Part shown: positions 1,395-22,383 of the stretch, one piece after another
Layout of the letters: each line of letters begins with the position of its first letter
Numbering within the stretch: the first letter of the stretch is position 1
Assembly (NCBI GenBank): GCA_024244705.1
Contig: JAAEOK010000033.1
Span: 20,534 to 84,533 of the forward strand
DNA length: 64,000 nucleotides
Direction: 5' to 3'
DNA from: Alphaproteobacteria bacterium
GTDB lineage: Bacteria; Pseudomonadota; Alphaproteobacteria; JAAEOK01
Notes under the pieces: generated by a model
Database searches by the model: none
Seen by the model: the letters and a program-made list of their open reading frames with translations, nothing else
Told to the model about the DNA's origin: nothing
Translations under genes and position numbers: made by a program

Positions 1395-1439
1395 CGACGG
1401 CGACGGCAGCAGGTGCCAATATCCGACTGACGCCCGGGT

Positions 1440-2580: not shown

Positions 2581-2587
2581 CGACCAC

Positions 2588-2773: not shown

Positions 2774-2890
2774 CGTTGGTCACTCCATCGGTTCCGGCTC
2801 GGTGGCTCGGGCGACACGATTATAACAGATATCGGCTGCCGCGGCGCGCCACTGTCGCCGCCATCTGGAAACCGGACGACTCGCCCGCGG

Positions 2891-7537: not shown

Positions 7538-9094
7538 TCAGGCGATGTCGTGGGACTGTTCTTCGGCCATCCTCTTGAGCGTGACGCGGTCGACCTTGCC
7601 GGTGGCGTTCAACGGCATCTCCTTGAGCACGATGACGTCTTCCGGCGCCTTGAAGCCGACCCGTTCGCGGGCGAACCGAATCAGCTCGATGGCGGCCGGC
7701 CGCGCGACCTCGTCGCTGAGCGTGATATAGGCGCGTACGTTCTCCCCGTGCACCGCGTCGTGGATACCGACCACGCCCGCCTCGAGTACCGCCTCGTGCT
7801 CGATCAGCGCGCCCTCGACCTCCTGTGGACAGATATTGGAGCCGTCGTGGATGATGATCTGTTTCTTGCGGCCGTGGAACCACAGGTAGCCGTCGTCGTC
7901 GACCACCACCACATCCCCGGTATCGAGCCAACCGTCGCGGACGGTCTCGACGGTGGCCTCCGTATTGTCCCAATAGCCGGCCATGTTGGATTTCGATTTG
8001 ATCCACAGCCGACCCTCGGAACCGGCCGCGACCTCGTTGCCCGCGTCGTCCCGGTTCGACAGGCTGAAGCCGGCATTGAGCGCGCCGATCGATCCCGTCT
8101 TGTCGGCCGCAGTGGGCGGGTTCGCAGTCGCCAAGCCGATTTCGGTCATCCCGTACAGCTCCTCGATCGGAAAACCCACGAGCTCGGTGAACTCCTTTTC
8201 GAGCTGGTCGGACACCTTGTCGCCGCCGGAGAGGCAGAGGCGGAGCGAGGAGAATTCGCGCTCGTGGGCATTGTGATCGCGGACCAGGGTGAACAACGCC
8301 GCCGGCAGCATGCACAGGACCGTCGGCCGGTGGATATCCAATAGCGGTATCAGCTCATCGCCATCGGACGTGCGTGGCACCAAGACCCGCGCCGCGACCG
8401 AGAGCGCCGCCAACGAGAAGCTGCTGCCGCCGATATGGGAAAACGACGAGCCGGGCAGGATGGTGTCGCTGGCGCCGAGTCCGCTTGCCGCCACCGCCCC
8501 GGCGAGGAGCCAGGCGAAGGTCTCGTGGGTGTGGGTGACGCCCTTGGGCTTTCCGGTACTGCCGGAGGTGAAGAAGATGAACGCCGGATCGTCGAGGCCC
8601 GGTCTCGGCAGCGAGGTTTCGACCGGCTCGCGCTCGACCATGTCCGCCAGATCCGGGCCGCGCCCGTCGGTCGCCCCGTAGGTGATTAATCCCAGCGGCA
8701 GCGTGCCGGCGAGCTCGGACTTGGCAATGTCGTCGTCGCGCTCGGCATGGACGACAAGGGCGGACGCGCCGCTGAGGCCAAGCGCGTGATCGATCTCGGG
8801 CGCCATGTAACGATAATTGAGCGGGGTCGCCACCAACCCGGCGCGGATGCAGGCGAGATAGTGGATCACCAGCCAGGTCCGATTGGGCATCAGCGACGCC
8901 AGCCGATCGCCGGGACGCAGACCATGGGCCAGATAGTTTGCCGCCAACCGAGTCGCGGCGGCGTCGAGCTCGCGCCAGGTCCAGCCGCGCTCGGCCGAAA
9001 CCAGTGCGACCTCGTCGGGTTTGCCGGCCAGGCCCGGAGTCAGGATTTCGGTCAGGGTCAGCGGCGCTTCGAGGGGTGGTCCCGAGAGTGGCAT
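7538..9094 (-). CDS. AMP-dependent acyl-CoA synthetase/ligase
   Basis: AMP-binding signature FFTSGSTGKPKGV, downstream GWLDTGD, and the GRKKQIIIHDGSNICPQEVE block. Confidence 0.9.
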   Translation of the reverse strand: MPLSGPPLEAPLTLTEILTPGLAGKPDEVALVSAERGWTWRELDAAATRLAANYLAHGLRPGDRLASLMPNRTWLVIHYLACIRAGLVATPLNYRYMAPEIDHALGLSGASALVVHAERDDDIAKSELAGTLPLGLITYGATDGRGPDLADMVEREPVETSLPRPGLDDPAFIFFTSGSTGKPKGVTHTHETFAWLLAGAVAASGLGASDTILPGSSFSHIGGSSFSLAALSVAARVLVPRTSDGDELIPLLDIHRPTVLCMLPAALFTLVRDHNAHEREFSSLRLCLSGGDKVSDQLEKEFTELVGFPIEELYGMTEIGLATANPPTAADKTGSIGALNAGFSLSNRDDAGNEVAAGSEGRLWIKSKSNMAGYWDNTEATVETVRDGWLDTGDVVVVDDDGYLWFHGRKKQIIIHDGSNICPQEVEGALIEHEAVLEAGVVGIHDAVHGENVRAYITLSDEVARPAAIELIRFARERVGFKAPEDVIVLKEMPLNATGKVDRVTLKRMAEEQSHDIA

Positions 9095-9120: not shown

Positions 9121-9389
9121 CTCATTGGGCCGCGGTGCCCGATTTTGTCGTTCGCGATTGGGGATCGCAATGGTTATGGGTGGAATTCTCAGGGCGCCAA
9201 ATGATCACCCGGTTGCGAGAAAATCTGACCGAAGCCGTGGATCGAATCCCCGATCCCGGCGCGCCGGAGGCAGCTCCAGAACTGCGCCTGGTTGCTGGTG
9301 ATAACGGGCTTGCCGGTGAGCCGCTCGACCTCTTCGGCGACTTCCAGCGACCGGATACCACCGCAGCTGAGGAATATGGCTTCGGCGCC
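9121..9389. repeat. Left copy of an imperfect direct repeat (3' end plus downstream flank of the racemase-family gene)
   Basis: Aligns by eye with 19038-19293. Both copies begin with ctcattgg and share gcaatggttatggg, attctcagggcgccaaa and ccccgatcccggcgcgccggaggcagctccagaactgcgcctggtt. I count about 26 mismatches over about 225 aligned nt, plus a ~13-nt indel in the non-coding part. Confidence 0.85.
9189..9389 (-). pseudogene. Truncated 3' fragment (last ~65 codons) of an Asp/Glu racemase / maleate isomerase-family gene
   Basis: The C-terminal part of ORF 9189..9572 reads AIFLSCGGIRSLEVAEEVERLTGKPVITSNQAQFWSCLRRAGIGDSIHGFGQIFSQPGDHLAP. This is near-identical to the C-terminus of the intact 262-aa gene at 19093..19881. 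The upstream part of the ORF has no similarity to that gene. Confidence 0.85.
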
Positions 9390-9445
9390 TGCCGGATCTC
9401 CAGGACTTTCGGCGATCCGTACCGGGTGTTGACAACCGCTTTCAT
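9389..9445 (-). pseudogene. N-terminal remnant (~19 codons) of an MDR-superfamily (quinone oxidoreductase / Zn-ADH-like) gene
   Basis: ATG at 9445 is preceded by AGGAGGAGGAAGAG and encodes MKAVVNTRYGSPKVLEIRQ, the stereotyped N-terminus of MDR oxidoreductases. Similarity ends at the junction with the racemase fragment. Confidence 0.5.
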
Positions 9446-10079
9446 AGACTCTTCCTCCTCCTTCACCCTCGCCTCGCGAAGCTCCGCCGCAAAATTCCCA
9501 ATGTTGCTGAGACTCATCCCGAAGTAGTTGAGATTCGGCCCGTCGAATTGAAAAAATCGATAGCGCTATCAACGTTAGAAGAATGGCAATTTTTCGCCGA
9601 TTTCTGCCAAAGCATCATCTGGTGTGAAGGATTGAGTTGGGCCAAGAGACGCCAGCGGCATCCCGATTCCCTATGTCTGGTTTTGGCACGCAGCTGCCGA
9701 ATTGACTATTGCAATTGGACGACCGTTTTGTGGTCCGAAAGCCGACATTCTAATCGTCGGTCTTGAATGTTCGAATTGGGCCACGATAGATCTTTGGCCA
9801 TGAAGGTTTGGTTGCCCGTTCTTGGGATTATGGTTAGCGATTAGCACCACAACTGACGCCCATAGGATTTCGAATATGCGACCACGAATCAAGGATCCGT
9901 CGGCCACCGAACGTCGTGATGATTAGTGGACAGGCCAATTTCGGACGCTATGCGGACACAAAAGAATATCGCAACAACGTGACGGCCTAAGTCATTTGAG
10001 CGGCCCGAGACATAATCGACATTTCGTACCGGAGACATGGGTAACACATTTGGCCTGTTCTATCGGGCGGGAGGTGTTG

Positions 10080-10157
10080 ATGCCGTGGAAAGAGAGTTCG
10101 GTGATGGAAAAACGCCTTCGCTTTGTTGCCCGCCTGCTGGACGGCGAACCGATGACG
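10080..10157 (+). mobile_element. IS481-family-like transposase N-terminal remnant (26 codons)
   Basis: GGGAGG then ATG 10080 encodes MPWKESSVMEKRLRFVARLLDGEPMT. This matches the stereotyped MPWKE..M..R..F. N-terminus of IS481-type transposases as I recall it. The expected HTH and DDE regions are absent after about nt 10160. Confidence 0.45.
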
Positions 10158-10361
10158 GGGACCCCCTGCTACGCGACCAACGACCTGACGTGCTATGCTC
10201 GTCCTAGTCGATCGGGAGGGGTATTATGCGACGGACAGTTTTCGCGTTCGCGCCCCGACTGTTGCCCGCCGTCCTGCTGCTCGACAGCGCGAAACCGTTG
10301 GTCCTGTCCTCTTCTATGATATTTCCGGTCATTCGACCGGCGGGCGGCTAGGAGTCAAGGG

Positions 10362-11351
10362 ATGAAAACACTGAACGCCATGCGGCTCTGGCGGCCATTC
10401 TCGAAATGGCCACTTAAAGTACTTTTCATGGTGTTTTATTTACCCGCCGCATTTCTGCCCGGAACACTGCGCGCCGGCGACGCACCGCAGTTTCCACCAG
10501 CCAGCCGAATCGGGCTTGTGCCGCCGACGGGGTTTGTGGTCAGCCCCGACTTCACGGGCTTCATGGATCGCGAGGCGGTCGCCTCGATCGTCATCACCGA
10601 GATGCCGAAGGAGGCTTATGGTGATCTCGAAGCCGGGTTCACGGAAGACAACCTCGCGGCTCAGGGCATGGCGCTACAGGGGCCTTGTCCCGACCTGGCC
10701 ATTACCTTCGAGCACCGCTGCTTCCGCGCCAGTCAGGAGGCGAGCGGCTACCTCTTCCAGAAATGGTTCTTGATCGCTAGGCTCGGCACCGAGACCGCCT
10801 TGGTCTTGGTGACCATGCCCGACCTTGTCTTGCAGGCTGGCGTCTATAGCGAGGCCGTGGTCGAGGCTGCCCTCTCGTCGATCGCCTATAGCGAGGACCT
10901 GACCACCGACCCTCTCGAAGTCTTGCCCTTCGCCATCGCGGAGGGAGATCTCTTACCCTTCAAGGACACCATGGGTGGAAGTGCAGCGCTCTTTGTCGGT
11001 GAGGCCACCGCCGAGGGGCCGCAGCCCGCGTGGATCGTCGCCGCTTCGCTCGGTCCCGGCACCAATGCCGCAAATATCGAATTCGGGCGGCTCGCCTTTC
11101 AAGAAATCGCCACCGTATTGGACGCCAGGGTGACCGAAGAACGGCGGATCACTGTCGGCCCGCTAGCGGGACACGTGCTCGAGGGAACGGGCACGGACGA
11201 GGTGACCGGAGACGACCTCTTCGTCTTCCAGGCCATTCTTGTCGACGCCGAAGACACCTATTACCGCCTCGTCGGCCTCGCTCCGATGACGCAAAAGGAG
11301 CTCTATCGGCCCGAGTTCTTTCGACTGACACAGACGCTCGAACCGCGCTAA
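10362..11351 (+). CDS. Secreted hypothetical protein (island gene A)
   Basis: AGGAG lies 7 nt upstream of ATG 10362. N-terminal hydrophobic signal-like segment KVLFMVFYLPAAFLPGTLRA. No recognisable catalytic motif. Confidence 0.6.
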   Translation: MKTLNAMRLWRPFSKWPLKVLFMVFYLPAAFLPGTLRAGDAPQFPPASRIGLVPPTGFVVSPDFTGFMDREAVASIVITEMPKEAYGDLEAGFTEDNLAAQGMALQGPCPDLAITFEHRCFRASQEASGYLFQKWFLIARLGTETALVLVTMPDLVLQAGVYSEAVVEAALSSIAYSEDLTTDPLEVLPFAIAEGDLLPFKDTMGGSAALFVGEATAEGPQPAWIVAASLGPGTNAANIEFGRLAFQEIATVLDARVTEERRITVGPLAGHVLEGTGTDEVTGDDLFVFQAILVDAEDTYYRLVGLAPMTQKELYRPEFFRLTQTLEPR

Positions 11352-11544
11352 TCCAGTACGTCACCGGATGTGCCGGCGCCAGCGCCATACGGCAAGCGCG
11401 GAACTGCACGGCCGCCATTGACTTGCCCCATAGCTGGTTACTTGGTGTACGATAAGCATCCGGACCCAGATGAGGCGATAGGATTGCTTGGCAATTCGCC
11501 GGTCCGAGCACCTCGGCTCAAAGACAACCAGCGGGGGAAATGCC

Positions 11545-12960
11545 ATGTCAATCTTGAAGTCGATCAAGACCGCGGCACTCGCCGCGGCTTTTGTGCTCGC
11601 TCTGGCCCAATCGGCAGTCGCTGCCAGCAACATCCTGTTCATTCTAGACGGTTCGAATTCGATGTGGGGCCAGCTCGAAGGCACCGCCAAGATCGCAACC
11701 GCGAAGAACGTCCTCGCCAACCTCATGACCGGCCTGCCGCCCGACACAAATGTCGGCCTGATGGCCTACGGCCATCGTGCAAAGTCGGATTGCGCCGATG
11801 TGGAGTTGCTGTCAGGAATCGGCGCCGATACGGGAATTGCGCTCCTCCGCAAGATCAAAGACATCTCGCCGAAGGGAAAGACACCTATTGCGGCCTCGCT
11901 GGCGCAAAGTGAACACGCCTTCGACGGCAGACTGGTGGAGAACAACAACATCATCCTGATATCCGACGGCATCGAGACCTGCGATGGCGACCCCTGCAAG
12001 GTTGCGGGCGAGCTACGGACCAAGGGCATCAACGTGCGGGTCCATGTCGTCGGCTTCAATGTCGAAGGCGAGGCCCGCCGGCAGCTCGAATGTATCGCGA
12101 ACGCGGGCAACGGCCAGTATTTCAACGCCGAGTCGACGATCGGATTCCAGGAAGCGATCCAGCAAGTGCAACAAGTCGCCCAGGCCGAACCCGAGCCGGC
12201 ACCGGCGCCCGCGCCGGCTGGGCCGACAATAACCGAAGTGTTCCGAGACGACTTCGACGGCGATGTGCTCGGCGAACATTGGGATGTCCTCAATCCGGAC
12301 ATCGAAAGCTACATCGTCGAGGATGGCTTTCTCAACGTCCTGTCCTCCACAGAACTAACGCTGTACAGCCACGATGACGCACTCGCGAATGTGTTCCAAC
12401 TGACCGAACCTCTCCCGGACGGAGACTGGATAGCGACCATGCGGGTGCTGCCTTCGATCACAACTTTCCGGGAAAGCTTCTCTCTTGCGCTTTATACGGA
12501 CAAGGACAACTTTCTCGCTGCTACCGCGGGGAGCGGCGTCAACGCGCACGCTGGAAATGTCTACGTCCATCTTTCCGCCAACAAGGTCACGAGGGGCAAA
12601 TACACAAGTTTTGGCAGCTACATGTTCTACAGCGAGGAGGCACTGGGACACCGCAACGTCTCTCAAAATATTGCGGCTTATTCCGAATTGGCGACCCGCG
12701 ACATCCAAGCAATAGTGTTACGTGTCGAGAAGGTCGGTCGGAGCTATTTCGTTTCCGGGAAAGTAGAAGGCGACCCAACGACGGCCGATAGTGAGGAAGG
12801 GCAATGGGTCGAACTGGAAAAACTCACGGCCCTGAGACCGCCGGGAAAGTTCCTGATAATTTCTATCGGTCAACAAATTTCAGATGGTGCCGATAAGCAC
12901 TTGATGGGAGGCGAGACGTTTGTGCAGGTCGATTGGGTGAAGATCGAAACGACGGAATAG
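11545..12960 (+). CDS. Secreted VWA (MIDAS) domain protein with C-terminal concanavalin-A/LamG-like lectin domain (island gene B)
   Basis: Internal ATG 11545 is preceded by GGGGGA. Signal peptide MSILKSIKTAALAAAFVLALAQSAVA. VWA core ILFILDGSNSMWG (DxSxS MIDAS) ... IILISDGIETCDG. A PEPAPAPAPAGP linker follows. The C-terminal domain starts FRDDFDGDVLGEHWDVLNP, which is typical of DUF1349/LamG-like folds. Confidence 0.8.
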   Translation: MSILKSIKTAALAAAFVLALAQSAVAASNILFILDGSNSMWGQLEGTAKIATAKNVLANLMTGLPPDTNVGLMAYGHRAKSDCADVELLSGIGADTGIALLRKIKDISPKGKTPIAASLAQSEHAFDGRLVENNNIILISDGIETCDGDPCKVAGELRTKGINVRVHVVGFNVEGEARRQLECIANAGNGQYFNAESTIGFQEAIQQVQQVAQAEPEPAPAPAPAGPTITEVFRDDFDGDVLGEHWDVLNPDIESYIVEDGFLNVLSSTELTLYSHDDALANVFQLTEPLPDGDWIATMRVLPSITTFRESFSLALYTDKDNFLAATAGSGVNAHAGNVYVHLSANKVTRGKYTSFGSYMFYSEEALGHRNVSQNIAAYSELATRDIQAIVLRVEKVGRSYFVSGKVEGDPTTADSEEGQWVELEKLTALRPPGKFLIISIGQQISDGADKHLMGGETFVQVDWVKIETTE

Positions 12961-12981
12961 GCCCCCACCGGCCGCAGGTGT

Positions 12982-14655
12982 TCACTCAATGTCCTGGATG
13001 GCACGGGCCAGCAGGCGACGCGACATCTTGGGCGACAACGCCTCGCTCTTCGTCACTTCCGCCTCGCCCGCGAGCGCCGGTGTTTTCGTTGCCTCGAGGC
13101 GCTTGACGATCTCGCCGTCCGGCTGCACGTAATGGTGCCGCCATAGGGTCGTTTCGGAAGAGGATTTAAGCAGACTTTCGAGATCCAGCAGCCGCGCCAA
13201 TTCGACCTCCTCAGGGGTTGGCGGCACGGCCGCCTGTTGAGGCGACGCCGCCGACGCTTCGACGGACGCACCTTCTTTTTCCGCCACCTCCGTTTCCCCG
13301 CCAACCTGTCTCTTTTTTTCGATTTCCGTCTCCGGGTCAGGGTCGGTGGCGGTCACGCGCGGTTCGGGCTCGTCCGGCAGGCCGAGGGTCGCACTCATCG
13401 CCGCCGCAATGTCGGCGGCTTCGGCCGTCGCGTTGAAGCTGCCGGCGCCGAGGCCGGCAAGAAAGGTCAATTCGAAAATCGAGCCGTCGTCCAGGGCGGC
13501 CCCGTAGACACCGAAGATCGCGAAGTCGGGTTCCGTATCGGCAATCGCCGACTCGACGGTCTGCGCGTTCAGTTCCATGGCCCTCACCGGATTGCTACCG
13601 ATCCACCGGCCGGAAAGCGCGAAACGGTATACGCCCGGATCCGGCGCCCCAATAAAAATGGTGCCATGGGTGACGTGATATTGGGCTGAGCGGCCACTGT
13701 CTTCCGGTACTTCGACCGAGCGAACCACGGTCTCCAGGCCGCGAACCAGATTGCCTTGGCCATCGTAGACCGGCGTCGGGAGTCCGGACAGCGACAGCAG
13801 AATGGCACCGGGACGATCCGTCTTGTAGGAAAACCAATCGACGTCGGCGGCGGGGTAAAGGCTGATCGCGACCGTCCGTCCGTCGCTGAGGTCACAGGCC
13901 GTCGCGGCCTCGTGGTTGGGCTCGCATTGATCCCAATTGGGAGCGTAGTCGAACCGCAGCTCGACCGGCGCCGGCTGCGGAACATCGCCGTGAAGGGTGA
14001 GCGCGACATCGCCTTCGTCGAGCAGACGGGTCTCGCCGAATTGCCACGCCGCACCGTCCTCGTCTGCCGGTATCAACCGATATCGTAACGCCGGATCGAC
14101 GAATGCGGGTATCCGCAGGGTCGGTGTCACATAGCCGGGCGCCGTCAGACGGAGGACAAAGTGGTCCGCGTCGTCGGCGGGGAACAACGTCACCGGACCG
14201 CCACCGCTCGACCGTTCCGGACCCAGTTCGAAGACGAAAGCGGTCTCGCGCGAATCGTTGGGCTCGAAGGCGTCGATGTCGGGCGACCAGAAGGCGAGCG
14301 CGCCACCGCCATGGCCGTCCCATTGGTCGAAGCCCTGGTCCGCGTCGTAGCGTGCGTCGCGCCGCAGCCGCACGACATAAGGCCCCGCCGTGGAAATACG
14401 CGCGCCGCCGCGGCCAATGACCATGCCGTCCGCATCCAGAACTTCGACGGCCACTTTCTTCAGCGTCTCGGGATCGGTCTCGAAAGCAAGCAGGCCCGGC
14501 GCCGGCAGTCGCATCGGATAGTCGAGATGTCCACCCGGCTTCGACAGATGGAAGGAGACCTTCTCATCAACCTCGTAGTGTCTGTCATCGGCCGCTGCCG
14601 GAAGCTGCCATGCCAGCATCGATGCGATAAGCGGCAGGATCGCGCGCCTGACCAT
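12982..14655 (-). CDS. Secreted protein with two pre-peptidase C-terminal (PPC)-like domains and an acidic C-terminal tail (island gene C)
   Basis: Signal peptide MVRRAILPLIASMLAWQLPAAA. Two copies of the PPC-type pattern: FEPNDSRETAF...LFPADDADHFVL and CEPNHEAATACDL...LYPAADVDWFSYK. The start is 3 nt after the stop of gene D. Confidence 0.65.
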   Translation of the reverse strand: MVRRAILPLIASMLAWQLPAAADDRHYEVDEKVSFHLSKPGGHLDYPMRLPAPGLLAFETDPETLKKVAVEVLDADGMVIGRGGARISTAGPYVVRLRRDARYDADQGFDQWDGHGGGALAFWSPDIDAFEPNDSRETAFVFELGPERSSGGGPVTLFPADDADHFVLRLTAPGYVTPTLRIPAFVDPALRYRLIPADEDGAAWQFGETRLLDEGDVALTLHGDVPQPAPVELRFDYAPNWDQCEPNHEAATACDLSDGRTVAISLYPAADVDWFSYKTDRPGAILLSLSGLPTPVYDGQGNLVRGLETVVRSVEVPEDSGRSAQYHVTHGTIFIGAPDPGVYRFALSGRWIGSNPVRAMELNAQTVESAIADTEPDFAIFGVYGAALDDGSIFELTFLAGLGAGSFNATAEAADIAAAMSATLGLPDEPEPRVTATDPDPETEIEKKRQVGGETEVAEKEGASVEASAASPQQAAVPPTPEEVELARLLDLESLLKSSSETTLWRHHYVQPDGEIVKRLEATKTPALAGEAEVTKSEALSPKMSRRLLARAIQDIE

Positions 14656-14658
14656 GGC

Positions 14659-17600
14659 TTATTGCGCGCTTCCCAGAGCGACGGCATCGAGACCCATGAG
14701 CCGTTGGACCGCATCGTGTACGCGGTCCTTGGTTATCGTCCGTTCGCGCAATTCGCCGGCTTCGCCTCTCAGGCCGGGCACCTTGGGCCCGCGAGCTTCC
14801 TGTTTGTTCTGGTCCCGCGAACGCGACCAGTTTATCGACCACACGGTTCGGCCGCGGGACTTGACATAGGAGACGGGGTGACGGCGGACCGTTAATGTTG
14901 CCTGGTCATTGGCGTCGTCCTCGTGGTCGCTTTCCCGGTATTCGATCGCCTCGACCCAGTAGTTCGGAACGGATGAGCCACCACCGGTGCCGACCCGATA
15001 TGCCGTCCAGCGCAACTCTTTCGGCTTGTCTTCCTTGTCCGGCTGTCGTTTCGGCTCGTCGGGCTCGATCTCGGCGACCGCACCGGTGGCGCTGCTGCCA
15101 CACGTTGTCTCACCGTCCGAGAAGACCAACAGCTTCCGCTTCGGAAATTGTGCCACGGTTTGCAGGTAGTTGTTGGCAAATCGAATGGCATCGCCGAGTG
15201 GCGTATCGCCCGATGGTTCAATGCCATGAAGGACATTGACTATTTCTTCGTGGTCGTTGGTGAATGGCACCACCGTCTGAATCCGGTTGCAATCAAAGAA
15301 AACAATCAGTGCGGCTTCATCGGTCACGCGCAGTTTCCTTACGGCTTCGGCGATACCGTCTTTCGCCTCAACCATGCGCCCGGCGTCCTCCATCGAGCCC
15401 GAGGCGTCCAGCAGCAGAACAATCGAGCGTCCGGCGGCGTCGAGCTTGTGCCATTCATCGGTGCCGCCACCGTCGGTCTTGCCGCCGTAGCGGACGTTTT
15501 CCTCCAGCCCGTACCACCTCTTGTCGTCCCAGTCATACCATGCGGCGGACCGTGGATCGGCGTCGATGCGAGGCCCATCCTTGACCCGCGCATCGACAAG
15601 AAAGGCGAGTTCCTTGTCCTCCGCGAGTATTTTCGCCACCGCGTCGGAGGGTGGAATGGTAACGGTGTAGTCATAGGATCCTTGCTCGACACGTGTCGGT
15701 AGCTCTGCCCGGTAACCCTCGGGATATCCCGGCTGCTTACCGCTGGCCAATCGCACCGTGACGTCGACAACAGGCTCTGCGAAACTGAGGTACACCTTCG
15801 CGGCCGCATCCGGATCGTAGCCTTCGTTGACCGTGACAACGAGCTTTCGGGCGCCATCGCGGTCGGGGTCGGGACGCCACGTCGCCCGGTAAATGGCCTC
15901 GCCGTTCTGCAGGACCGCGAGCTTCACGAGATGGGCGGTCGGATCGAGCTTATGGATCGGCAATTTCCGTCCACTGAGCCTGTCGTTTCCTCCAATCGAA
16001 GCGCCGCCTTCCCACATCGTCACGCGCAGGGTGCCGCCATCCTCCACCGATAATCGAGGCGCGGTCTCCGGCTTTTCGTCGAAGCGGCCGATCCAGGAAT
16101 CGAAGCCGGACACCGCGACCTCCAATTCGACCACCTCTTCGCCGCCCGCCAAGCGTTTCGCCGCCTCCTCGAAGAAGTAGACGTCGTCGTCAAATCGCTC
16201 GAACTCGTTGTCGACGAATTCCTCGAACTCGTAGTCGACAAATCCTTCGAACTCGTTATAGAAAATCTTGCCGTCGCTCCGATACGTTTTCGATCTCAAT
16301 GTCGCTTTGAGATTAATTTCCTCGCCGCCGACATCGAGCGCCGCCAATTGGTCTACCGGCCGGCTGGTCTTGACGCGAAAGCGCACCTTCTTGTTTTCCT
16401 CTTTGTCGAATCTGATGCCTTCGGTCAGAATCGTCCGAGTGCGCCAGGTGCCCGGCCGCGACGATGGCTCGCGAACGACCTTCCAAACCGGGCGCCAATC
16501 CGGGGGGAAGCCGATGGCCTCGTCGACGTCGACGATGAACGACGTCACGACCGGCGGCGTCAGGATCGCCGCCGCCAACTCGAACGAATTCGCGGCAAGG
16601 GCTTTGATCGCCTCATTGGGGCCGATCTCGTCGTCGCGCTCGACCGGATTCGTGTTGACCGCGACCAGGAACAATCGCGTGCGGGGGAAATCCTCGATCT
16701 CGACACTCGCCCACTTCTCGCGGAAACGCTGACCCGGGAAATCGTGGACTTTCCACTGCTCGATCGGGCCGTCGTCGTCGTAGCCGCGGCGCGGTACTTC
16801 GACCAGACGGAAATCCCAGTAAGGGTGAGACGCACCGCGCACCGCCACCGACAGCCGGCTGAGGTTTTGCTCCTCCTTGATGTCGTAAAATCCGGCCAGC
16901 GCCGAACGCGCCGGTTCGATCTCATAGTAGCCGATCTGAAAGGGCATCAGATCGCGTTTCAGCGGCACCAAGCGGGTGCCTTCCAGTTTGTCGAGTGCAG
17001 TACGTATCAGTTCGAGCTCGTTACTAGCGGCAATATCGGGATGCATTCCGTCGATATAGGCTTGCTTGACGTCATCGCGTTTTCGGAACGAGAACGTCGG
17101 GTTGAGGGACGGGCTTTGGATCAGTGTCGCGACGGCGAAGTCGCCGATTCGCGCCCTCATTTTTTCGCCCCAGGCGTATTCGTCGCCGAGGGCGATGGCC
17201 AGGGCTTGATAGGTATTGTGGCCGTCGACTTCGGCCGCCTCTTCCCATATGCGTCGGACGATGTCGTTCGATCCGGGATTTCTTTCAGAAAGATATTGGA
17301 AAAAGACCGAAGCCGCGTATTCGTTGGCGTCCTCGCTGCTCAGGGTCGACATCGACAGGCGATTGGCATCCCACGCCCCATACCGCTCCGCCCACCCGGT
17401 CGATAGCCAGTATTCCGGCGGCGGATCGAACGCCTTGTCCTCGACCCAGGTCGCCGTCGATTCCATCAGCCAGAACCGTTCCGCGACGTCGTAACCGAAC
17501 TGCACGACATGGAAGAATTCATGGGCCACCAGCGCCTTCAGATAATGCTCCTTCCACGCCTCGTCGGCGCTGTTTCCCCAGACATGCCGCTCCAAGCCGA

Positions 17601-18027
17601 TCTCGATCCACGGATTGTAAAGCACGCGCTCGCCGACAAGCTCGCCCAGAAAGCCCATATTCTGGTAGGCGACGCCGGTGGGTTTGAACCCCATCCGTTC
17701 GCTAACGGGAATGTCGGTGATATAGACGTCGACCTTATGCCCTTCGAGCCATGACGGTTCCGCGAAGCCGAGCTCGTCGAAGATCTTTGTCCGCGCTTCC
17801 TCGATATAATCGCCGACCGCTTTCGCATAGGCTTCGCTGGTCTGCCCTTCCTGGATCCCAGCCCGGAATGCGGACGGTCGCGACGCCTGATAGAGCACCC
17901 GAAAATGGTCCGTGTGATAGGTTTTCGCGGTCAGCCAGTCGCTCCAGCCCACTTTGGCGTCGGCGACGCCACCAAGGAAGAGCAGGACGACACCGGCCAT
18001 CGCCAATATGCGGAGCGCCGCTCTCAC
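14659..18027 (-). CDS. Secreted 1122-aa fusion: N-terminal HExxH gluzincin-like metalloprotease, large unknown middle, C-terminal VWA (MIDAS) domain (island gene D)
   Basis: Signal peptide MRAALRILAMAGVVLLFLGGVADA. Zinc motif LVAHEFFHVVQ followed by FWLMESTATWVED (a W-x-x-E-x-x-A-x-W third-ligand-type block). C-terminal VWA IVLLLDASGSMED ... LLVFSDGETTCG. The GTG start overlaps the stop of gene E (GTGA at 18024-18027). Confidence 0.8.
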   Translation of the reverse strand: MRAALRILAMAGVVLLFLGGVADAKVGWSDWLTAKTYHTDHFRVLYQASRPSAFRAGIQEGQTSEAYAKAVGDYIEEARTKIFDELGFAEPSWLEGHKVDVYITDIPVSERMGFKPTGVAYQNMGFLGELVGERVLYNPWIEIGLERHVWGNSADEAWKEHYLKALVAHEFFHVVQFGYDVAERFWLMESTATWVEDKAFDPPPEYWLSTGWAERYGAWDANRLSMSTLSSEDANEYAASVFFQYLSERNPGSNDIVRRIWEEAAEVDGHNTYQALAIALGDEYAWGEKMRARIGDFAVATLIQSPSLNPTFSFRKRDDVKQAYIDGMHPDIAASNELELIRTALDKLEGTRLVPLKRDLMPFQIGYYEIEPARSALAGFYDIKEEQNLSRLSVAVRGASHPYWDFRLVEVPRRGYDDDGPIEQWKVHDFPGQRFREKWASVEIEDFPRTRLFLVAVNTNPVERDDEIGPNEAIKALAANSFELAAAILTPPVVTSFIVDVDEAIGFPPDWRPVWKVVREPSSRPGTWRTRTILTEGIRFDKEENKKVRFRVKTSRPVDQLAALDVGGEEINLKATLRSKTYRSDGKIFYNEFEGFVDYEFEEFVDNEFERFDDDVYFFEEAAKRLAGGEEVVELEVAVSGFDSWIGRFDEKPETAPRLSVEDGGTLRVTMWEGGASIGGNDRLSGRKLPIHKLDPTAHLVKLAVLQNGEAIYRATWRPDPDRDGARKLVVTVNEGYDPDAAAKVYLSFAEPVVDVTVRLASGKQPGYPEGYRAELPTRVEQGSYDYTVTIPPSDAVAKILAEDKELAFLVDARVKDGPRIDADPRSAAWYDWDDKRWYGLEENVRYGGKTDGGGTDEWHKLDAAGRSIVLLLDASGSMEDAGRMVEAKDGIAEAVRKLRVTDEAALIVFFDCNRIQTVVPFTNDHEEIVNVLHGIEPSGDTPLGDAIRFANNYLQTVAQFPKRKLLVFSDGETTCGSSATGAVAEIEPDEPKRQPDKEDKPKELRWTAYRVGTGGGSSVPNYWVEAIEYRESDHEDDANDQATLTVRRHPVSYVKSRGRTVWSINWSRSRDQNKQEARGPKVPGLRGEAGELRERTITKDRVHDAVQRLMGLDAVALGSAQ
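16198..16262. repeat. 24-bp tandem repeat, about 2.7 copies, inside gene D
   Basis: ctcgaactcgttgtcgacgaattc / ctcgaactcgtagtcgacaaatcc / ttcgaactcgttataga. On the coding strand this encodes NEFEGFVD-YEFEEFVD-NEFERFDD. Confidence 0.7.
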
Positions 18028-18896
18028 TTCGCGATCCGTATGGCGAGGCGGCCATGAAACCGGATCGTGACCTCGGTCGAGAACGTCGCCTCGCCGAGAT
18101 CGATCTCGACCGGCTTTAGTTCGTTCGACGAATCGCCGACCTTGACCGGCTCGAACCGGGCGAGGCGCAGCGGCAGTTGCCAGTCCGCGCTCATTAGAAC
18201 GGTCTCGTCGCCCGCAGCCAGTTCCGCGACCCCGTCATCGCTGTCGATTTCGAGCACCGGCGAGTCGCGCTCGCTGTCGTCGAGTTTCCACATCGCTTCC
18301 GGCCATTGGATCAGCTCGAAGAGCGGCGGCTCGCTGCCGACCGGCGTCATCAACACCAGGTCGGGCCGGTCGGCGATGGGAAAGGGTGGCAGGCCAGGCT
18401 GCAGCCAGATCACGGTCGCGTCGCCGCGCCGCATCTCGCCAAGATAGCGCCGGCGTTCGACCACGACCACGGCGACATCGGCCAGTTCCCTGACATTGTC
18501 AGCCAGCCGCAGCGGAAAATCGGCATCGCGCCGGGATAGGGCGGAGACCACCAGCGGATCCAGCACCAATGTGTCCTCGGTGATCTCGGCCAAAGGGTAA
18601 GTCATGTTTTCGCTGTAGGGCGCCCCGCGAAGGGAAATCGTGTCGCCGGCATCGACCAATAGTTCGATGACGACGGCACTGGGGTCAGCTGTCGGATTCG
18701 CGTGAGTATCAGCGCCGTCCTGTGCTTCCGCGCGTGCTGAAACAACCACCAAGGCCACAGCAGTCAAGAACGTCACAAGCGGGCAGTGCCGTTTGGGTCG
18801 ACCTCGTTTTTGGACGATTTCAGTACCTTCGATCAAGGCGATGTCCAACGACTCTTTGCCCCCGTCAATTTCAGTCGGAGCAAGGAAACGCCGCAA
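18024..18896 (-). CDS. Secreted or membrane-anchored hypothetical protein (island gene E, first gene of the E-D-C operon)
   Basis: Hydrophobic segment CPLVTFLTAVALVVVSARAEA follows the basic KRGRPKRH stretch. The start is uncertain. The ORF-track start at 18896 is a TTG that overlaps a perfect TATAAT (18896-18901, minus strand), so the real start may be a downstream TTG near 18848. Confidence 0.55.
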   Translation of the reverse strand: MRRFLAPTEIDGGKESLDIALIEGTEIVQKRGRPKRHCPLVTFLTAVALVVVSARAEAQDGADTHANPTADPSAVVIELLVDAGDTISLRGAPYSENMTYPLAEITEDTLVLDPLVVSALSRRDADFPLRLADNVRELADVAVVVVERRRYLGEMRRGDATVIWLQPGLPPFPIADRPDLVLMTPVGSEPPLFELIQWPEAMWKLDDSERDSPVLEIDSDDGVAELAAGDETVLMSADWQLPLRLARFEPVKVGDSSNELKPVEIDLGEATFSTEVTIRFHGRLAIRIAK

Positions 18897-19037
18897 TTAT
18901 ACTACGTTTACCGAAAAAGTTCGGCATCGCAGTTCTAAATCCATCGCGGCCTCCTATCGAAAACCGCCCTGAATCCCGCGACGGATCGCAAAAGGACCTG
19001 GCATTCCAATTGGTGCAGTCAAATGATTTCAGCACCG

Positions 19038-19293
19038 CTCATTGGCCTGCGGCGCCCGCGGTGGTCGTCCGCAATGGTTATGGGCGAAATTCTCAGGGCG
19101 CCAAACGAGTGCCCGGTCGCGAGAAAATCTGGCCGAAACCCTCGATCGAATCCCCGATCCCGGCGCGCCGGAGGCAGCTCCAGAACTGCGCCTGGTTACT
19201 GGTGATGACGGGCTTGCCGGTGAGTTGTTCGATCTCCTCGGCGACTTCCAGAGAGCGGATACCGCCGCAGCTCAAGAATATGGCGTCGGCGTC
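19038..19293. repeat. Right copy of the imperfect direct repeat (3' end of the intact racemase-family gene plus flank)
   Basis: See the left copy at 9121-9389. Same orientation, roughly 85-90% identity by eye. Confidence 0.85.
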
Positions 19294-19881
19294 GGGGCGA
19301 TCGATTTCGAGTGCGAACGCCTTCCAGTAGTCCGGCGTAACGCAGCCGAATTCGATGCCGGTCGTGAGGTTGAGGCCCTGCATATCGAGTACCTCGAAGC
19401 CCTTGCCGACCAGAAATTCCGCCTCGGCGGTGTTGATCTCATCGAGGTAGGGCGTCCCGACGACCAGTTTTTGCACGCCCAATTCCCGCAGCGCATCGAC
19501 CACCCCCGTAACCAGGCACATCGGCCTCGCCCACGGCGCGCCCTTTTCGATTTCCGCCATCACTCGTTCTTCGCCGATCACGATGGAACCGCTGGTACAG
19601 CTGTAGCTGACAACGTCCGGCTTGGTGTCCGGCTGAATGCGCGACGCCGCGTCGGCCATGGTGTCGATATGGCGGGCGAGCGTTTCATTGGTCGTGTAAT
19701 CCTCCGACTTGAGCCGCGTGATGTGCACCGCGACGCCCTCGGGCGCCATGGCGAAGAAATCCGACTCGGCCGCCAGGTCGGTCGACATCAGGATGAAGCC
19801 GAGCCTTGCCCGCCAGTGTTTGCCGGCATCGAGTTGCGGCTGCCGTGCCTTCGATTGGATCGTCTCTCCTGATTTGAACAT
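19093..19881 (-). CDS. Asp/Glu/hydantoin racemase family protein (maleate isomerase / arylmalonate decarboxylase-like)
   Basis: Two Cys-containing catalytic-type blocks, VVSYSCTSGS and AIFLSCGGIRS. 262 aa. Last gene of a four-gene minus-strand operon. Confidence 0.8.
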   Translation of the reverse strand: MFKSGETIQSKARQPQLDAGKHWRARLGFILMSTDLAAESDFFAMAPEGVAVHITRLKSEDYTTNETLARHIDTMADAASRIQPDTKPDVVSYSCTSGSIVIGEERVMAEIEKGAPWARPMCLVTGVVDALRELGVQKLVVGTPYLDEINTAEAEFLVGKGFEVLDMQGLNLTTGIEFGCVTPDYWKAFALEIDRPDADAIFLSCGGIRSLEVAEEIEQLTGKPVITSNQAQFWSCLRRAGIGDSIEGFGQIFSRPGTRLAP

Positions 19882-19891
19882 CGATCGCCCC

Positions 19892-21040
19892 TCAGAGGAT
19901 TACGTCGTCGAGTGCCTTCGCGTGATCCGTGATCTGCTCATACCCATCCTCGGTGATGATGAAGCTGTCACCGACTTGCGCGCGGAAACTCTTGGTCTCG
20001 CTGACCGAGCCGTCGACCGCCAACACCATGCCGGGGCGAAGAACTGTTTTGTCTCCGAGAACGAGTTCGGGCTTTTCCAAATAGCTGTATCCGGTGGCAC
20101 GCCCACAGCGGAATGGGTAATCGAAACCCGCTTCCTCGATGACGGCGGCATAGGCCCGATGCACCTCTTCGGCGGTGACGCCGGGGCGAAGGACGCTCAG
20201 CGCCGCCGCCTGGCTGTCGACCGCCACCCGATAGATTTCGGCCTGTTTGCTGTCCTGCACTTCGCCGATCCAGAACGTGCGGTCGAAACCCAGCTTGAAG
20301 CGGTGAAAATTCGTCATCCCGCAAAAGCACAGGAAGACCGGATCGCCGCGCTTCATGATGCGCGTCGAGGCTCGGTGATGGGGCTTCGTGATTTCGTCGC
20401 CCGACGCCATGATCTGCAGGAAATGCGTGTTCGGCGACATGCACCGATCGGAATAGTGGGTCGCCAGCAACTCGGCCGCCTTGCGCGTGCCCGCGGACGA
20501 CGTCGCCAGAGCCACCTCGTATTCCGGCACGCCGGGTCCGATCGCCGCGCGTCCCGCCTCCATCATCGCCATGGCGACCGCGCCGGCGTGGCGCGCGATC
20601 TGCAATTCTTCGTCCGACTTGATCATGCGCATTTCGGAAATGACCGGGGCGACGTCTCCCAGCTTGCCATCCTCGACGAGTGTGTTGAGGTAGCTGCGCA
20701 CGATCGGCGGCATCCGGTCGGGCTCGATCCCGACCCGCACATTGCCGCTCAGTATGGACGGCAATTCCTCGCGCCATTCGTTGCCAAGTCCGTCGTTCCA
20801 GGCCGCGATTCGGTCGACCCGCGCCGCCGCCTCGGCCATGTCCAATTCCATGCTCGGCGTGATCAGGAGGGCCTCGCCATCCTTGGGCACGACCAGAATC
20901 GTCGGCCGCCCAAAGTCCATGTGCAGGTAATCGTAATAACCGGTGAAGTAGTAAACGCTGTCGTCGTCGGTTATCAGCGCGAGGTCGAAACCGGTTTCGG
21001 CCAACTTGGCGCGCAAGCTCCCCATCCGCTGCGTAAACAT
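19892..21040 (-). CDS. M24 family metallopeptidase (Xaa-Pro dipeptidase / creatinase / ectoine-hydrolase-like)
   Basis: Internal ATG at 21040 (MFTQRMGSLRAKLAETGFD...) overlaps the upstream stop (TAATG). It has a creatinase-type N-domain then a pita-bread domain (SDEELQIARHAGAVAMAMMEA ...). The 83 codons upstream in the ORF track are Arg-rich and overlap the M20 gene, so I excluded them. Confidence 0.8.
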   Translation of the reverse strand: MFTQRMGSLRAKLAETGFDLALITDDDSVYYFTGYYDYLHMDFGRPTILVVPKDGEALLITPSMELDMAEAAARVDRIAAWNDGLGNEWREELPSILSGNVRVGIEPDRMPPIVRSYLNTLVEDGKLGDVAPVISEMRMIKSDEELQIARHAGAVAMAMMEAGRAAIGPGVPEYEVALATSSAGTRKAAELLATHYSDRCMSPNTHFLQIMASGDEITKPHHRASTRIMKRGDPVFLCFCGMTNFHRFKLGFDRTFWIGEVQDSKQAEIYRVAVDSQAAALSVLRPGVTAEEVHRAYAAVIEEAGFDYPFRCGRATGYSYLEKPELVLGDKTVLRPGMVLAVDGSVSETKSFRAQVGDSFIITEDGYEQITDHAKALDDVIL

Positions 21041-22215: not shown

Positions 22216-22383
22216 GCTTAACGGTCTCTCGATTGACAAAACAAAGGGCGGCCAGCGACCCCTTATCAGATCGGCGAGGTGAGCGCTATTGTCGTCGCGC
22301 CGGCACGCCGCGCGTTCAATTCTGCCGCGGCGAGTTCGGTCCGCGCACCGCTGCCGAGCCCGCCATGGGACTCGGCCGGACAC

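What the first reader, a model, noticed from the sequence alone, without database searches (positions are those of the whole stretch)
9121..19293. ~9.6 kb island bracketed by ~260-bp diverged direct repeats of a gene 3' end: signature of integration into the racemase-family gene
Nt 9121-9389 and 19038-19293 are direct repeats. By my count they differ by about 26 mismatches over about 225 nt, plus one ~13-nt indel. Each covers the last ~65 codons of the Asp/Glu-racemase-family gene plus about 55-70 nt downstream of its stop. The right copy completes the intact gene 19093..19881. The left copy is a dead fragment next to the acyl-CoA synthetase gene. Elements that integrate into gene 3' ends carry a surrogate 3' end and leave the displaced original at the far junction, which produces exactly this pattern. 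The divergence suggests the surrogate came from another host. No integrase, excisionase or intact transposase remains, so the island appears fixed.
Basis: seen in the sequence. Interest (0 to 1): 0.65.

Follow-up and report, generated by a model that had tools for sequence, protein, structure and literature searches.

The report
Foreign island beside displaced gene end
A 9.6-kb piece of foreign DNA sits between an intact metabolic gene and a leftover copy of that gene's last 66 codons; this is an ordinary, now immobile scar of horizontal gene transfer, and nothing shows that an integrase made it.

Summary
The repeat is real. Window 9121-9387 matches 19038-19291 over 267 aligned columns: 223 identical, 31 mismatches and one 13-nt gap. 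It covers the last 66 codons, the stop codon and 55-68 nt downstream of an EutA-like gene of the Asp/Glu-racemase superfamily.

The two copies differ like two working alleles. Changes are mostly at third codon positions, there are no frameshifts, and the left copy departs from its relatives at only 1 of 40 conserved residues. The DNA between them is compositionally foreign. Its five cargo genes encode proteins with signal-peptide-like N-termini, including a rare HExxH-metalloprotease/VWA protein. A 160-nt IS481 relic lies near its left end.

The inner left junction is not a clean attachment site. It joins the ribosome-binding site and first 23 codons of a zinc-type alcohol dehydrogenase gene, out of frame, to codon -66 of the racemase-family gene. 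A 12-nt stretch at the join can be read as either gene.

I found no integrase relic, empty site, excision joint or second use of this site in 163 related loci, but the host has no close sequenced relatives.

I favour recombination anchored in the gene plus an illegitimate join. Decayed site-specific integration remains a live rival. This is a known kind of feature and of low interest.

The parts
19093..19881 (-). Intact 262-aa EutA-like gene of the Asp/Glu-racemase superfamily (arylmalonate decarboxylase / maleate isomerase-like). It is the last gene of an M20 peptidase - M24 peptidase - racemase-family row.
   Evidence: Pfam Amdase 5e-27. NCBIfam EutA 8e-53, but below that model's cut-off. 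Aligns over residues 1-262 with relatives at 74-88% amino-acid identity.
19038..19291 (.). Right copy of the direct repeat: 66 codons, the stop and 55 nt downstream.
9121..9387 (.). Left copy of the direct repeat: 66 codons, the stop and 68 nt downstream.
   Evidence: 223 of 267 columns identical, with one 13-nt indel in the non-coding tail.
9240..9293 (.). 54-nt block that is perfectly identical in both copies (right copy 19144-19197). It may be a crossover or gene-conversion tract, or chance.
   Evidence: One search gives the coordinates. Codon-shuffle p = 0.013, and every relative differs from the right copy by at least 8 nt in this block. The source-run unitigs break exactly here.
9189..9389 (-). 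Displaced 3' fragment of a second allele of the racemase-family gene (codons -66 to the stop). It has no start codon of its own and is a pseudogene.
   Evidence: Amdase profile positions 171-228. Codon table. Only 1 of 40 conserved positions deviates.
9378..9389 (-). Junction zone. On the minus strand GGCGCCGAAGCC reads as (Q)APKP of the dehydrogenase relic or, in another frame, as GAEA of the racemase fragment. This allows up to 12 nt of microhomology.
   Evidence: Read directly from the sequence. The repeat homology ends here.
9377..9445 (-). 5' relic of a zinc-type (MDR) NAD(P)-dependent alcohol dehydrogenase gene. It has an ATG and 23 codons (MKAVVNTRYGSPKVLEIRQAPKP), preceded by GGAGGAGGA at 9453-9461. 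It is fused out of frame to the racemase fragment.
   Evidence: ORF 9122..9517. In TBLASTN against plasmids, 49 of 50 matched places span at least 80% of the peptide. All listed hits that carry an annotation lie in alcohol dehydrogenase / zinc-binding dehydrogenase / NADP oxidoreductase genes. Best E = 2e-3 in 7.3 Gb.
9446..9996 (.). AT-rich non-coding scar with no recognisable gene relic. The scar as a whole (9446-10361) is 54% G+C, against 65.5% for the rest of the window.
   Evidence: Pfam and PHROGs scans of ORFs and stop-to-stop pieces found nothing. The plasmid DNA search matched only the IS part.
9997..10158 (+). Relic of an IS481-family element: about 75 nt of its left end plus the first 25 codons of the transposase (MPWKESSVMEKRLRFVARLLDGEPM), then cut off.
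   Evidence: About 80% DNA identity to the 5' ends of IS481 copies on Rhizobium plasmids. The annotated reference shows the match runs from 74 nt upstream to 76 nt inside the transposase gene. Depth at 10067-10072 is 564 against about 117 around it, so the element is multi-copy in the source run.
10362..11351 (+). Cargo gene: 329-aa protein with a signal-peptide-like N-terminus and no known family.
   Evidence: No homologue in L082 or L083.
11488..12960 (+). Cargo gene: 490-aa protein with a signal-peptide-like N-terminus, a VWA domain and an unassigned C-terminal domain.
   Evidence: Pfam VWA 3.5e-13. Its homologue in L082 is split into two genes.
12982..14655 (-). Cargo gene: 557-aa protein with a signal-peptide-like N-terminus and no known family. 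Third gene of the conserved operon.
   Evidence: 43-45% identical to the homologues in L082 and L083.
14659..18027 (-). Cargo gene: 1122-aa protein with a signal-peptide-like N-terminus, an N-terminal HExxH (HEFFH) domain of the putative metalloprotease family MXAN_6640, and a C-terminal VWA domain.
   Evidence: NCBIfam NF045524 8e-28 (below its cut-off) and Pfam VWA_2 1e-15. Only 13 of 1.84 billion cluster representatives match at E <= 1e-30.
18024..18896 (-). Cargo gene: 290-aa protein with no known family. First gene of the conserved three-gene operon, 141 nt beyond the right repeat.
   Evidence: 41-43% identical to the homologues in L082 and L083.
7538..9094 (-). Acyl-CoA synthetase gene, the host-composition flank next to the displaced fragment.
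   Evidence: Pfam AMP-binding 3e-74. GC3 0.85. Best homologue 66% identical.
19892..22383 (-). M24 (creatinase/prolidase-like) and M20 peptidase genes upstream of the intact racemase-family gene. M24-racemase adjacency is conserved in many relatives.
   Evidence: Tetranucleotide composition is back at background here, z < 1.

Best explanation
What is shown. Window 9390-19037 is about 9.65 kb of horizontally acquired DNA that is now immobile. It holds five cargo genes, an IS481 relic and the stump of a dehydrogenase gene. It separates an intact EutA-like gene from a displaced 3' end of a second allele of that gene. The two ends are 11-12% apart, and they differ the way two working genes from related lineages differ.

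What is inferred. The segment most likely entered by recombination anchored in the gene itself. On one side, donor DNA carrying the donor's racemase-family gene followed by the cargo paired homologously with the recipient's gene. On the other side, the end of the donor DNA, inside a dehydrogenase gene at codon 23, was joined illegitimately to codon -66 of the recipient's gene across up to 12 nt of microhomology. This is homology-facilitated illegitimate recombination. A variant that leaves the same product is a circle that already carried this fusion and integrated by a single crossover in the 54-nt identical block.

Consequence, also inferred. The intact gene now ends in the incoming allele. 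The native end was pushed 9.9 kb away, next to the acyl-CoA synthetase gene, where it is a dead fragment. No integrase is needed for this, and none is present.
For: - The repeat is real and unique in the window.
- Of 23 coding differences, 14 are at third codon positions, with no indel or stop in 66 codons.
- The left copy's eight amino-acid differences fall at variable positions. Only 1 of 40 positions that are at least 90% conserved in relatives deviates, and that change is I to V. It was therefore a working gene until shortly before truncation.
- Each copy is closer to the other (about 89%) than to any of roughly 160 relatives (at most 84%). Relatives share no downstream homology.
- The inner junction joins a ribosome-binding site, an ATG and 23 codons of a zinc-type dehydrogenase to the racemase fragment, out of frame, with a 12-nt stretch readable as either parent.
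- The island is compositionally foreign. Cargo GC3 is 0.70-0.75 against 0.85-0.89 in the left flank. Tetranucleotide z is mostly 1.3-4.2 between 9 and 18.5 kb and falls below 1 from 19 kb. The scar region is 54% G+C.
- An IS481 relic is present.
- Four of the five cargo genes recur as a module on two unrelated contigs with different neighbours.
- No integrase or excisionase was found by Pfam, NCBIfam or PHROGs, including in six-frame pieces of the scar.
- Orphaned 3' gene ends behind a newly arrived module have been attributed to this same mechanism in Vibrio T6SS and Rhs loci (PMC5361080).
Against: - No close relative of the host or of a donor exists in the collections, so neither an empty site nor a donor arrangement was seen.
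- The 54-nt perfectly identical block (codon-shuffle p = 0.013) is not predicted if the homologous crossover lay upstream of the repeat. It fits better with a crossover inside the repeat (a single-crossover or integrase model) or with later gene conversion.
- Laboratory examples of this mechanism involve shorter inserts than 9.6 kb, and it is rare (my own knowledge; rarity is also stated in PMC5361080).
- Which copy is native rests only on contiguity with host-like or island-like DNA.
- A 27-nt imperfect inverted repeat lies just inside both island ends and this model does not explain it.
Confidence: 0.42

Rival explanations
1. An integrative element (ICE, IME, prophage-like or other genomic island) with a site-specific recombinase integrated into the 3' end of the racemase-family gene. 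It carried a surrogate 3' end, and the 54-nt identical block is the att core. The integrase and the neighbouring element end were later lost in a deletion that fused a dehydrogenase gene stump to the displaced fragment.
For: - Direct repeats of a gene's 3' end bracket foreign DNA while the gene stays intact.
- The perfect 54-nt core lies within the usual 10-60 bp range for att repeats (PMC5812530) and is longer than chance suggests (p = 0.013).
- The scar region with an IS relic shows that DNA has been lost at the left end.
- Elements that target the 3' ends of protein-coding genes are known, for example ICESt1 and ICESt3 in fda (PMC5812530).
Against: - No integrase, excisionase or relaxase relic was found in the cargo genes or in the six-frame pieces of the left scar.
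- Homology extends about 93 nt on the gene-internal side of the core, which an attP does not need.
- The element end next to the displaced fragment lies inside a coding sequence, so at least one extra deletion must be assumed.
- None of 163 related loci shows a second 3' fragment or an island at this gene, and there were no hits in viral contigs.
- No excision joint was seen (contigs only).
Confidence: 0.25
2. Two complete copies once stood in the region. One was the native gene next to the acyl-CoA synthetase gene. The other was a xenologous copy that arrived with the island, or with M24-racemase plus the island. The redundant copy was then destroyed by a microhomology-mediated deletion running from codon 24 of a dehydrogenase gene to codon -67 of that copy. 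On this reading the repeat marks gene redundancy and loss, not the insertion point.
For: - The left copy bears the marks of a gene that functioned until recently.
- The junction is a typical deletion join between two genes in the same orientation.
- A 5'-truncated copy of this gene stands in another metagenome contig, L158.
Against: - It needs two events, and an insertion boundary that is not visible.
- The M24-racemase region has host-like tetranucleotide composition, while the dehydrogenase stump and its upstream DNA are compositionally foreign. The stump therefore belongs to the island and not to a native dehydrogenase-to-racemase row.
- Both copies share the downstream non-coding tail, which fits alleles of one locus better than distant paralogues.
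Confidence: 0.2
3. Assembly artefact. The assembler threaded the 54-nt identical core the wrong way. The real molecules would be an uninterrupted racemase-synthetase junction plus a separate piece of about 9.9 kb, circular or located elsewhere.
For: The k=31 unitigs of the source run end exactly in the core (9264-9269 and 19168-19173), so those data cannot say which ends belong together. Both threadings give an intact reading frame.
Against: - The four unitigs meeting at the core have similar depth (87-131x), as expected for single-copy linked DNA.
- The window comes from a 215-kb contig that passes both junctions.
- Reads of 100 nt or more would span 54 nt (my inference; the read length is not on record).
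- The 9.9-kb piece has no replication gene.
Confidence: 0.05
4. A 260-bp stretch was duplicated in place when the DNA was inserted, and the copies then drifted apart.
For: The topology (direct repeats flanking an insert) would fit.
Against: Twelve percent divergence biased towards third codon positions, no indel in 198 coding nt, and only one conservative change at 40 conserved residues in the dead copy. A fragment that was dead from the start would have decayed at random.
Confidence: 0.03

Closest known systems
Acquisition of foreign DNA by homology-facilitated illegitimate recombination, with orphaned 3' gene ends left behind the new module. Laboratory work: de Vries & Wackernagel 2002, Prudhomme et al. 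2002, Meier & Wackernagel 2003, as cited in PMC5361080. Genomic examples: Vibrio cholerae T6SS effector-immunity arrays and Rhs loci (PMC5361080).
   Same: An intact gene is followed by newly arrived DNA and then by a displaced 3' piece of the older allele. One side of the event is homologous. The other is a join between unrelated sequences at a short microhomology. No recombinase gene is involved.
   Different: The gene here is a metabolic enzyme gene, not a polymorphic toxin. There is a single displaced fragment, not an array. The insert (9.6 kb) is long. The donor arrangement has not been seen, so the homologous anchor is inferred.
Integrative elements that target the 3' end of a protein-coding gene and supply a replacement end, for example ICESt1 and ICESt3 in fda of Streptococcus thermophilus. 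General att-site properties are reviewed in PMC5812530.
   Same: Foreign DNA is bracketed by direct repeats derived from the 3' end of the target gene. The gene remains intact. An identical block of 54 nt lies within the usual att-repeat size range.
   Different: There are no integrase, excisionase or transfer genes. The repeats are 260 bp long and only 86% alike, with homology on both sides of the identical block. One element end lies inside a truncated coding sequence. No empty site, circle junction or second instance was found.
Campbell-type insertion of a circular molecule by one homologous crossover (insertion-duplication).
   Same: It yields direct repeats of the shared segment on both sides of the insert. 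The longest identical stretch is the likeliest crossover point.
   Different: It requires a circular intermediate that already carried the dehydrogenase-racemase fusion, for which there is no evidence. A shared segment of 260 bp at 86% identity is a poor substrate for RecA (my own knowledge).

Membership tests
Site-specific integrative element (ICE / IME / prophage-type genomic island) | Integrase (tyrosine or serine recombinase) gene at or near one end | tested here: not met
   Pfam, NCBIfam and PHROGs found none in the cargo genes. Pfam and PHROGs found none in ORFs or stop-to-stop pieces of the left-end scar. A DNA search of 9400-10400 against plasmids matched only an IS481 5' end.
Site-specific integrative element (ICE / IME / prophage-type genomic island) | Short identical core repeated at both ends (attL/attR), typically 10-60 bp | tested here: inconclusive
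   A 54-nt identical block exists at 9240-9293 and 19144-19197 (p = 0.013). It sits inside a longer diverged repeat with homology on both sides. It could equally be a homologous crossover tract, a gene-conversion tract or chance.
Site-specific integrative element (ICE / IME / prophage-type genomic island) | Empty target site (attB) in related genomes, or an excised circle junction in reads | not testable with these tools
   The nearest relatives are 74-88% identical in this gene and 66% in the neighbouring synthetase, and synteny is not kept. Only k=31 contigs are held for the source runs, and they break in the core.
Site-specific integrative element (ICE / IME / prophage-type genomic island) | Repeated use of the same target gene by related elements | tested here: not met
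   None of the 163 related loci holding this gene has cargo genes, the synthetase gene or a displaced 3' fragment beside it. Those with a second match hold a distant paralogue, a whole-unit duplication (L139) or a frameshifted gene. There are no relatives in viral contigs. Short Amdase C-terminal proteins in the database come from frameshifted long-read assemblies.
Homology-facilitated illegitimate recombination product | A join between unrelated sequences at a short microhomology on one side of the insert | tested here: met
   Dehydrogenase codon 23 is joined out of frame to racemase codon -66. The 12 nt at 9378-9389 are readable as either parent.
Homology-facilitated illegitimate recombination product | A homologous anchor on the other side, with donor-type sequence continuous into the insert | tested here: inconclusive
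   The right copy is continuous with both the gene and the cargo. However, no mosaic breakpoint could be found in the gene and no donor genome is known.
Genomic island (generic) | Atypical composition, relics of mobile DNA, patchy distribution | tested here: met
   Cargo GC3 is 0.70-0.75 against 0.85-0.89 in the left flank, and tetranucleotide z is mostly 1.3-4.2. An IS481 relic is present. The cargo module occurs on two unrelated contigs only.
IS481-family insertion sequence | Complete transposase gene between terminal inverted repeats | tested here: not met
   Only about 75 nt of the left end and 25 codons remain. There is no second copy in the window.

The most novel reading that the evidence does not exclude
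The 54-bp identical core and the 27-bp imperfect inverted repeat just inside both island ends (9400-9426 and 18975-19001) might be the working ends of an undescribed element. Such an element would be mobilised in trans or lack an integrase, would target the 3' end of this EutA-like gene, and would carry a very rare HExxH-metalloprotease/VWA module with signal-peptide-like N-termini.
Probability: 0.06. Interest if true: 0.5.

Novelty: new member of a known kind. Interest (0 to 1): 0.22.

Why it matters
As it stands, this is a well-preserved example of how a bacterial chromosome takes up a foreign gene block while keeping the target gene working. The incoming allele supplies the gene's end, and the old end is left behind as a dated scar.

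Its main value is as annotation:
- The fragment at 9189-9389 and the dehydrogenase stump are pseudogene relics, not genes.
- The five genes between them form an acquired module encoding proteins with signal-peptide-like N-termini, in a host lineage that has no sequenced close relatives.

The case also shows that direct repeats of a gene's 3' end are not enough on their own to call an integrase-mediated event. The structure of the inner junction has to be examined as well.

Tried and rejected
- **Empty site or donor arrangement.** I scanned 185,579 species genomes and the JGI metagenomes with the racemase-family protein, giving 160 loci at 72-88% identity. None has the synthetase gene or the cargo beside the gene. 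The window's own racemase protein is not in the gene-position index. The synthetase lies on a 2.4-kb contig that ends 13 nt outside the repeat.
- **Population polymorphism or excision.** Three DNA runs of one study hold the strain, all with the island at flank depth and no in-register joint. One odd joint, 9317 to 19631 in run X2, is out of register. Its flank of only 29 nt and its depth of 206 suggest it belongs to another organism. RNA runs of the same samples hold nothing from the region.
- **Polarising the two copies with relatives.** I tried nucleotide identity per copy, a 5'/3' mosaic test, and informative sites in the arm against the tail. None gave a signal.
- **A closer left-type allele among 5.8 billion proteins**. 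The best hit is 84% identical. The short hits on long contigs are frameshifted genes in error-prone assemblies.
- **Hidden integrase relics.** Pfam at E <= 1 on stop-to-stop pieces, PHROGs, and a plasmid DNA search all found none.
- **Structure or terminator in the shared non-coding tail.** Fold z-scores were -0.6 and -0.2, and no terminator-like site lies on the gene's strand. The tail is not a dispersed repeat.
- **Other features.** No tRNA or Rfam family in the window, so the island is not next to a tRNA gene. PADLOC shows no defence-system match for the cargo.
- **PDB sequence search with the 23-residue dehydrogenase peptide.** No hit, because the query is too short. The TBLASTN search settled the point instead.

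Full report
**1.

A local alignment pairs window 9121-9387 with 19038-19291 over 267 columns: 223 identical, 31 mismatches and one 13-nt gap. The ungapped part, 9166-9387 against 19070-19291, is 222 nt at 89.2% identity (BLASTN E = 1.3e-81). MAFFT and the repeat finder agree. Neither the repeat nor its non-coding tail occurs elsewhere in the window.

The right copy is the end of an intact 262-aa gene, 19093..19881 on the minus strand. That gene belongs to the Asp/Glu-racemase superfamily. It matches Pfam Amdase at 5e-27, is EutA-like in NCBIfam (below that model's cut-off), and is called 'maleate isomerase' by JGI for relatives. It follows M20 and M24 peptidase genes. It aligns over its full length with more than 160 relatives at 74-88% amino-acid identity.

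The left copy holds the last 66 codons and the stop (9189-9389). It lies about 95 nt upstream of the acyl-CoA synthetase gene 7538..9094. Homology continues 55 nt (right) and 68 nt (left) past the stop.

**2. The two ends are alleles that both worked**

- Of 23 coding differences, 14 are at third codon positions. There is no indel or stop in 66 codons.
- I compared 158 relatives. The left copy's amino-acid differences sit at variable positions and use residues that relatives also use.
- At the 40 positions where at least 90% of relatives agree, the left copy deviates once, with a conservative I to V change. A fragment that had been dead since a duplication in place would not look like this.
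- The two copies are closer to each other (about 89% in the coding part) than to any relative (at most 84%). No relative shares the downstream tail.
- They are therefore alleles of one locus from related lineages, and the truncation is recent compared with their divergence.
- One 54-nt block (9240-9293 and 19144-19197) is perfectly identical. Shuffling codon columns gives p = 0.013 for a run that long. Every relative differs from the right copy by at least 8 nt in that block.

**3. The junctions**

The outer ends of the repeat (9121 and 19038) lie in non-coding DNA. One is 27 nt before the synthetase start codon. The other is 141 nt before the first cargo gene.

The inner end of the left copy is not a clean site. 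On the minus strand, GGAGGAGGA (9453-9461) is followed by an ATG at 9445 and 23 codons, MKAVVNTRYGSPKVLEIRQAPKP. The frame then runs out of register into the racemase fragment.

In a TBLASTN search of 7.3 Gb of plasmid DNA, 49 of 50 matched places span at least 80% of this peptide. Every listed hit that carries an annotation lies in a gene named NAD(P)-dependent alcohol dehydrogenase, zinc-binding dehydrogenase or NADP-dependent oxidoreductase, with a best E of 2e-3. Since residue 1 of the peptide is matched, I infer that the matches lie at the starts of those genes. So the start of a zinc-type dehydrogenase gene has been joined to codon -66 of the racemase-family gene.

The 12 nt at 9378-9389, GGCGCCGAAGCC, can be read as (Q)APKP of one parent or as GAEA of the other. 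The repeat homology stops exactly there. This is what a microhomology-mediated illegitimate join or deletion looks like (inference).

Further in lies about 550 nt of AT-rich DNA with no recognisable relic; the scar as a whole, 9446-10361, is 54% G+C. Then comes a 160-nt 5' stump of an IS481-family element (9997-10158). It keeps about 75 nt of the left end and 25 transposase codons, and the element is multi-copy in the source run.

**4. The DNA between the repeats is foreign**

- GC3 of the five cargo genes is 0.70-0.75. It is 0.85-0.89 in the left flank and about 0.82 on average across the window.
- The tetranucleotide distance to the rest of the window runs mostly 1.3-4.2 sd above background between 9 and 18.5 kb. 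It is back below 1 sd from 19 kb. Composition therefore changes at the repeats, and the M24-racemase pair looks host-like.
- All five cargo proteins have signal-peptide-like N-termini, judged by eye. They are a 329-aa protein, a 490-aa VWA protein, and an operon of 290, 1122 and 557 aa.
- The 1122-aa protein has an HEFFH motif in a domain of the putative metalloprotease family MXAN_6640, plus a VWA domain.
- No protein matches PADLOC or PHROGs.
- The family is rare. Three proteins, the window's own included, match at E <= 1e-20 in the word-indexed search. Thirteen of 1.84 billion cluster representatives match at E <= 1e-30.
- Four of the five genes recur at 42-53% identity as a block on two contigs with unrelated neighbours and no racemase-family or synthetase gene.

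**5. The search for relatives and for other states of the locus**

- None of the 160 loci found with the racemase-family protein has the synthetase gene, any cargo gene or a second 3' fragment beside the gene.
- The host lineage has no close relatives. The best homologue of the synthetase is 66% identical.
- The strain appears in three DNA runs of a single study. In each, the island is present at the depth of its flanks and the sequence is unchanged.
- Only k=31 contigs are held for these runs. They end inside the 54-nt core, so they cannot show excision and cannot confirm how the core is threaded. This is a caveat on the assembly. It is mitigated by equal depth (87-131x) and by the 215-kb contig that runs through both junctions.
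- RNA runs of the same samples hold nothing from the region.
- Viral contigs hold no relative of the gene or of the cargo.

**6. Mechanism**

Shown:
- a foreign insert;
- two diverged alleles of the gene's end, both functional until recently;
- a gene-to-gene fusion at the inner junction;
- an IS stump;
- no recombinase.

Inferred: contiguity suggests that the left copy, next to host-like DNA, is the native end, and that the right copy, next to the cargo, came with the insert.

The single-event explanation is homology-facilitated illegitimate recombination. Donor DNA carrying 'racemase gene - cargo - ... - dehydrogenase gene' pairs with the recipient's gene. Its far end is then joined at a microhomology 200 nt before the recipient's stop codon. 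This leaves exactly the observed order. The same logic has been proposed for orphaned 3' ends in T6SS and Rhs loci (PMC5361080).

Its weak point is the 54-nt identical block, which it does not predict. A crossover inside the repeat would explain that block, whether by a Campbell-type insertion of a circle or by a site-specific recombinase. Both of those need an earlier or later extra event to account for the fusion junction. The integrase version has no direct support: no relic, no recurrence, and homology on both sides of the core, where att repeats are typically 10-60 bp (PMC5812530). Later gene conversion could also create the block under any model.

My weights are:

| Model | Weight |
|---|---|
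| Illegitimate join anchored in the gene | about 0.4 |
| Decayed site-specific element | about 0.25 |
| Two full copies followed by a deletion | about 0.2 |
| Mis-threaded assembly | about 0.05 |
| Duplication in place | about 0.03 |

**7. Verdict**

Its broad reading also stands: this is a fixed island whose insertion involved the gene's 3' end, and one of the two ends is foreign. The specific claim of integration by an element carrying a surrogate end is one of several models that leave the same repeats. The junction structure argues mildly against it.

This is a new instance of a known kind of genomic scar and of modest interest. The cargo module and a 27-nt inverted repeat just inside both island ends are the only parts that might repay more work.

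Noticed in passing
window 1400-2900 (ORFs 1514..2476 minus and 2588..2773 minus): A second compositionally foreign patch: 57% G+C in 2-kb windows, tetranucleotide z up to 5. It holds a 320-aa protein with an N-terminal TIR domain (Pfam TIR_2 1e-30, ThsB_TIR 1.4e-6). It also holds a 61-aa ORF that by eye looks like an antitoxin, with no Pfam match. This may be a small defence islet.
   Followed up: partly
window 9400-9426 and 18975-19001: A 27-nt imperfect inverted repeat (21 of 27 complementary) lies just inside both ends of the island (I8). None of 1000 random pairs of same-sized windows from this sequence reached that score. The left arm lies inside the dehydrogenase N-terminal relic, there is no target-site duplication, and I noticed the coincidence post hoc. 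Unexplained.
   Followed up: partly
window 14659-18027 and neighbours; loci L082 2256-9793 and L083 3-5861: The 290/1122/557-aa operon plus the VWA gene forms a conserved but very rare module. Only 13 of 1.84 billion cluster representatives match the 1122-aa protein at E <= 1e-30. Function is unknown. In L082 the 490-aa VWA protein is represented by two separate genes on opposite strands.
   Followed up: partly
window 16182-16262: Three head-to-tail 24-nt units inside the 1122-aa gene (family D3) encode an acidic eight-residue repeat (EFEGFVDY / EFEEFVDN / EFERFDDD) between the protease and VWA domains.
   Followed up: no
window 10048-10079: The source-run unitigs break here, and depth at 10067-10072 is 564 against about 117 around it. 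The IS481-type element whose stump lies here is therefore present in several copies in the sample, although the window holds no complete copy.
   Followed up: partly
window 8735-8896: In run X1 a 2947-nt contig of similar depth (126x) matches part of the synthetase gene with 27 differences and two indels. This points to a second, related acyl-CoA synthetase gene in the same sample or genome.
   Followed up: no
locus L158 1629-2147; locus L139 364-1149 and 5840-6625: L158 has a 5'-truncated copy of the racemase-family gene (residues 113-260 of the window's protein) in an unrelated context. L139 carries the gene and a paralogue twice, about 5.5 kb apart. These are independent rearrangements at this gene in other organisms, and neither has flanking 3' repeats.
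   Followed up: partly
loci L165-L168: Many short 'Amdase C-terminal' proteins in the protein collection come from long-read assemblies in which most genes are split by frameshifts. They are not true orphan fragments.
   Followed up: yes
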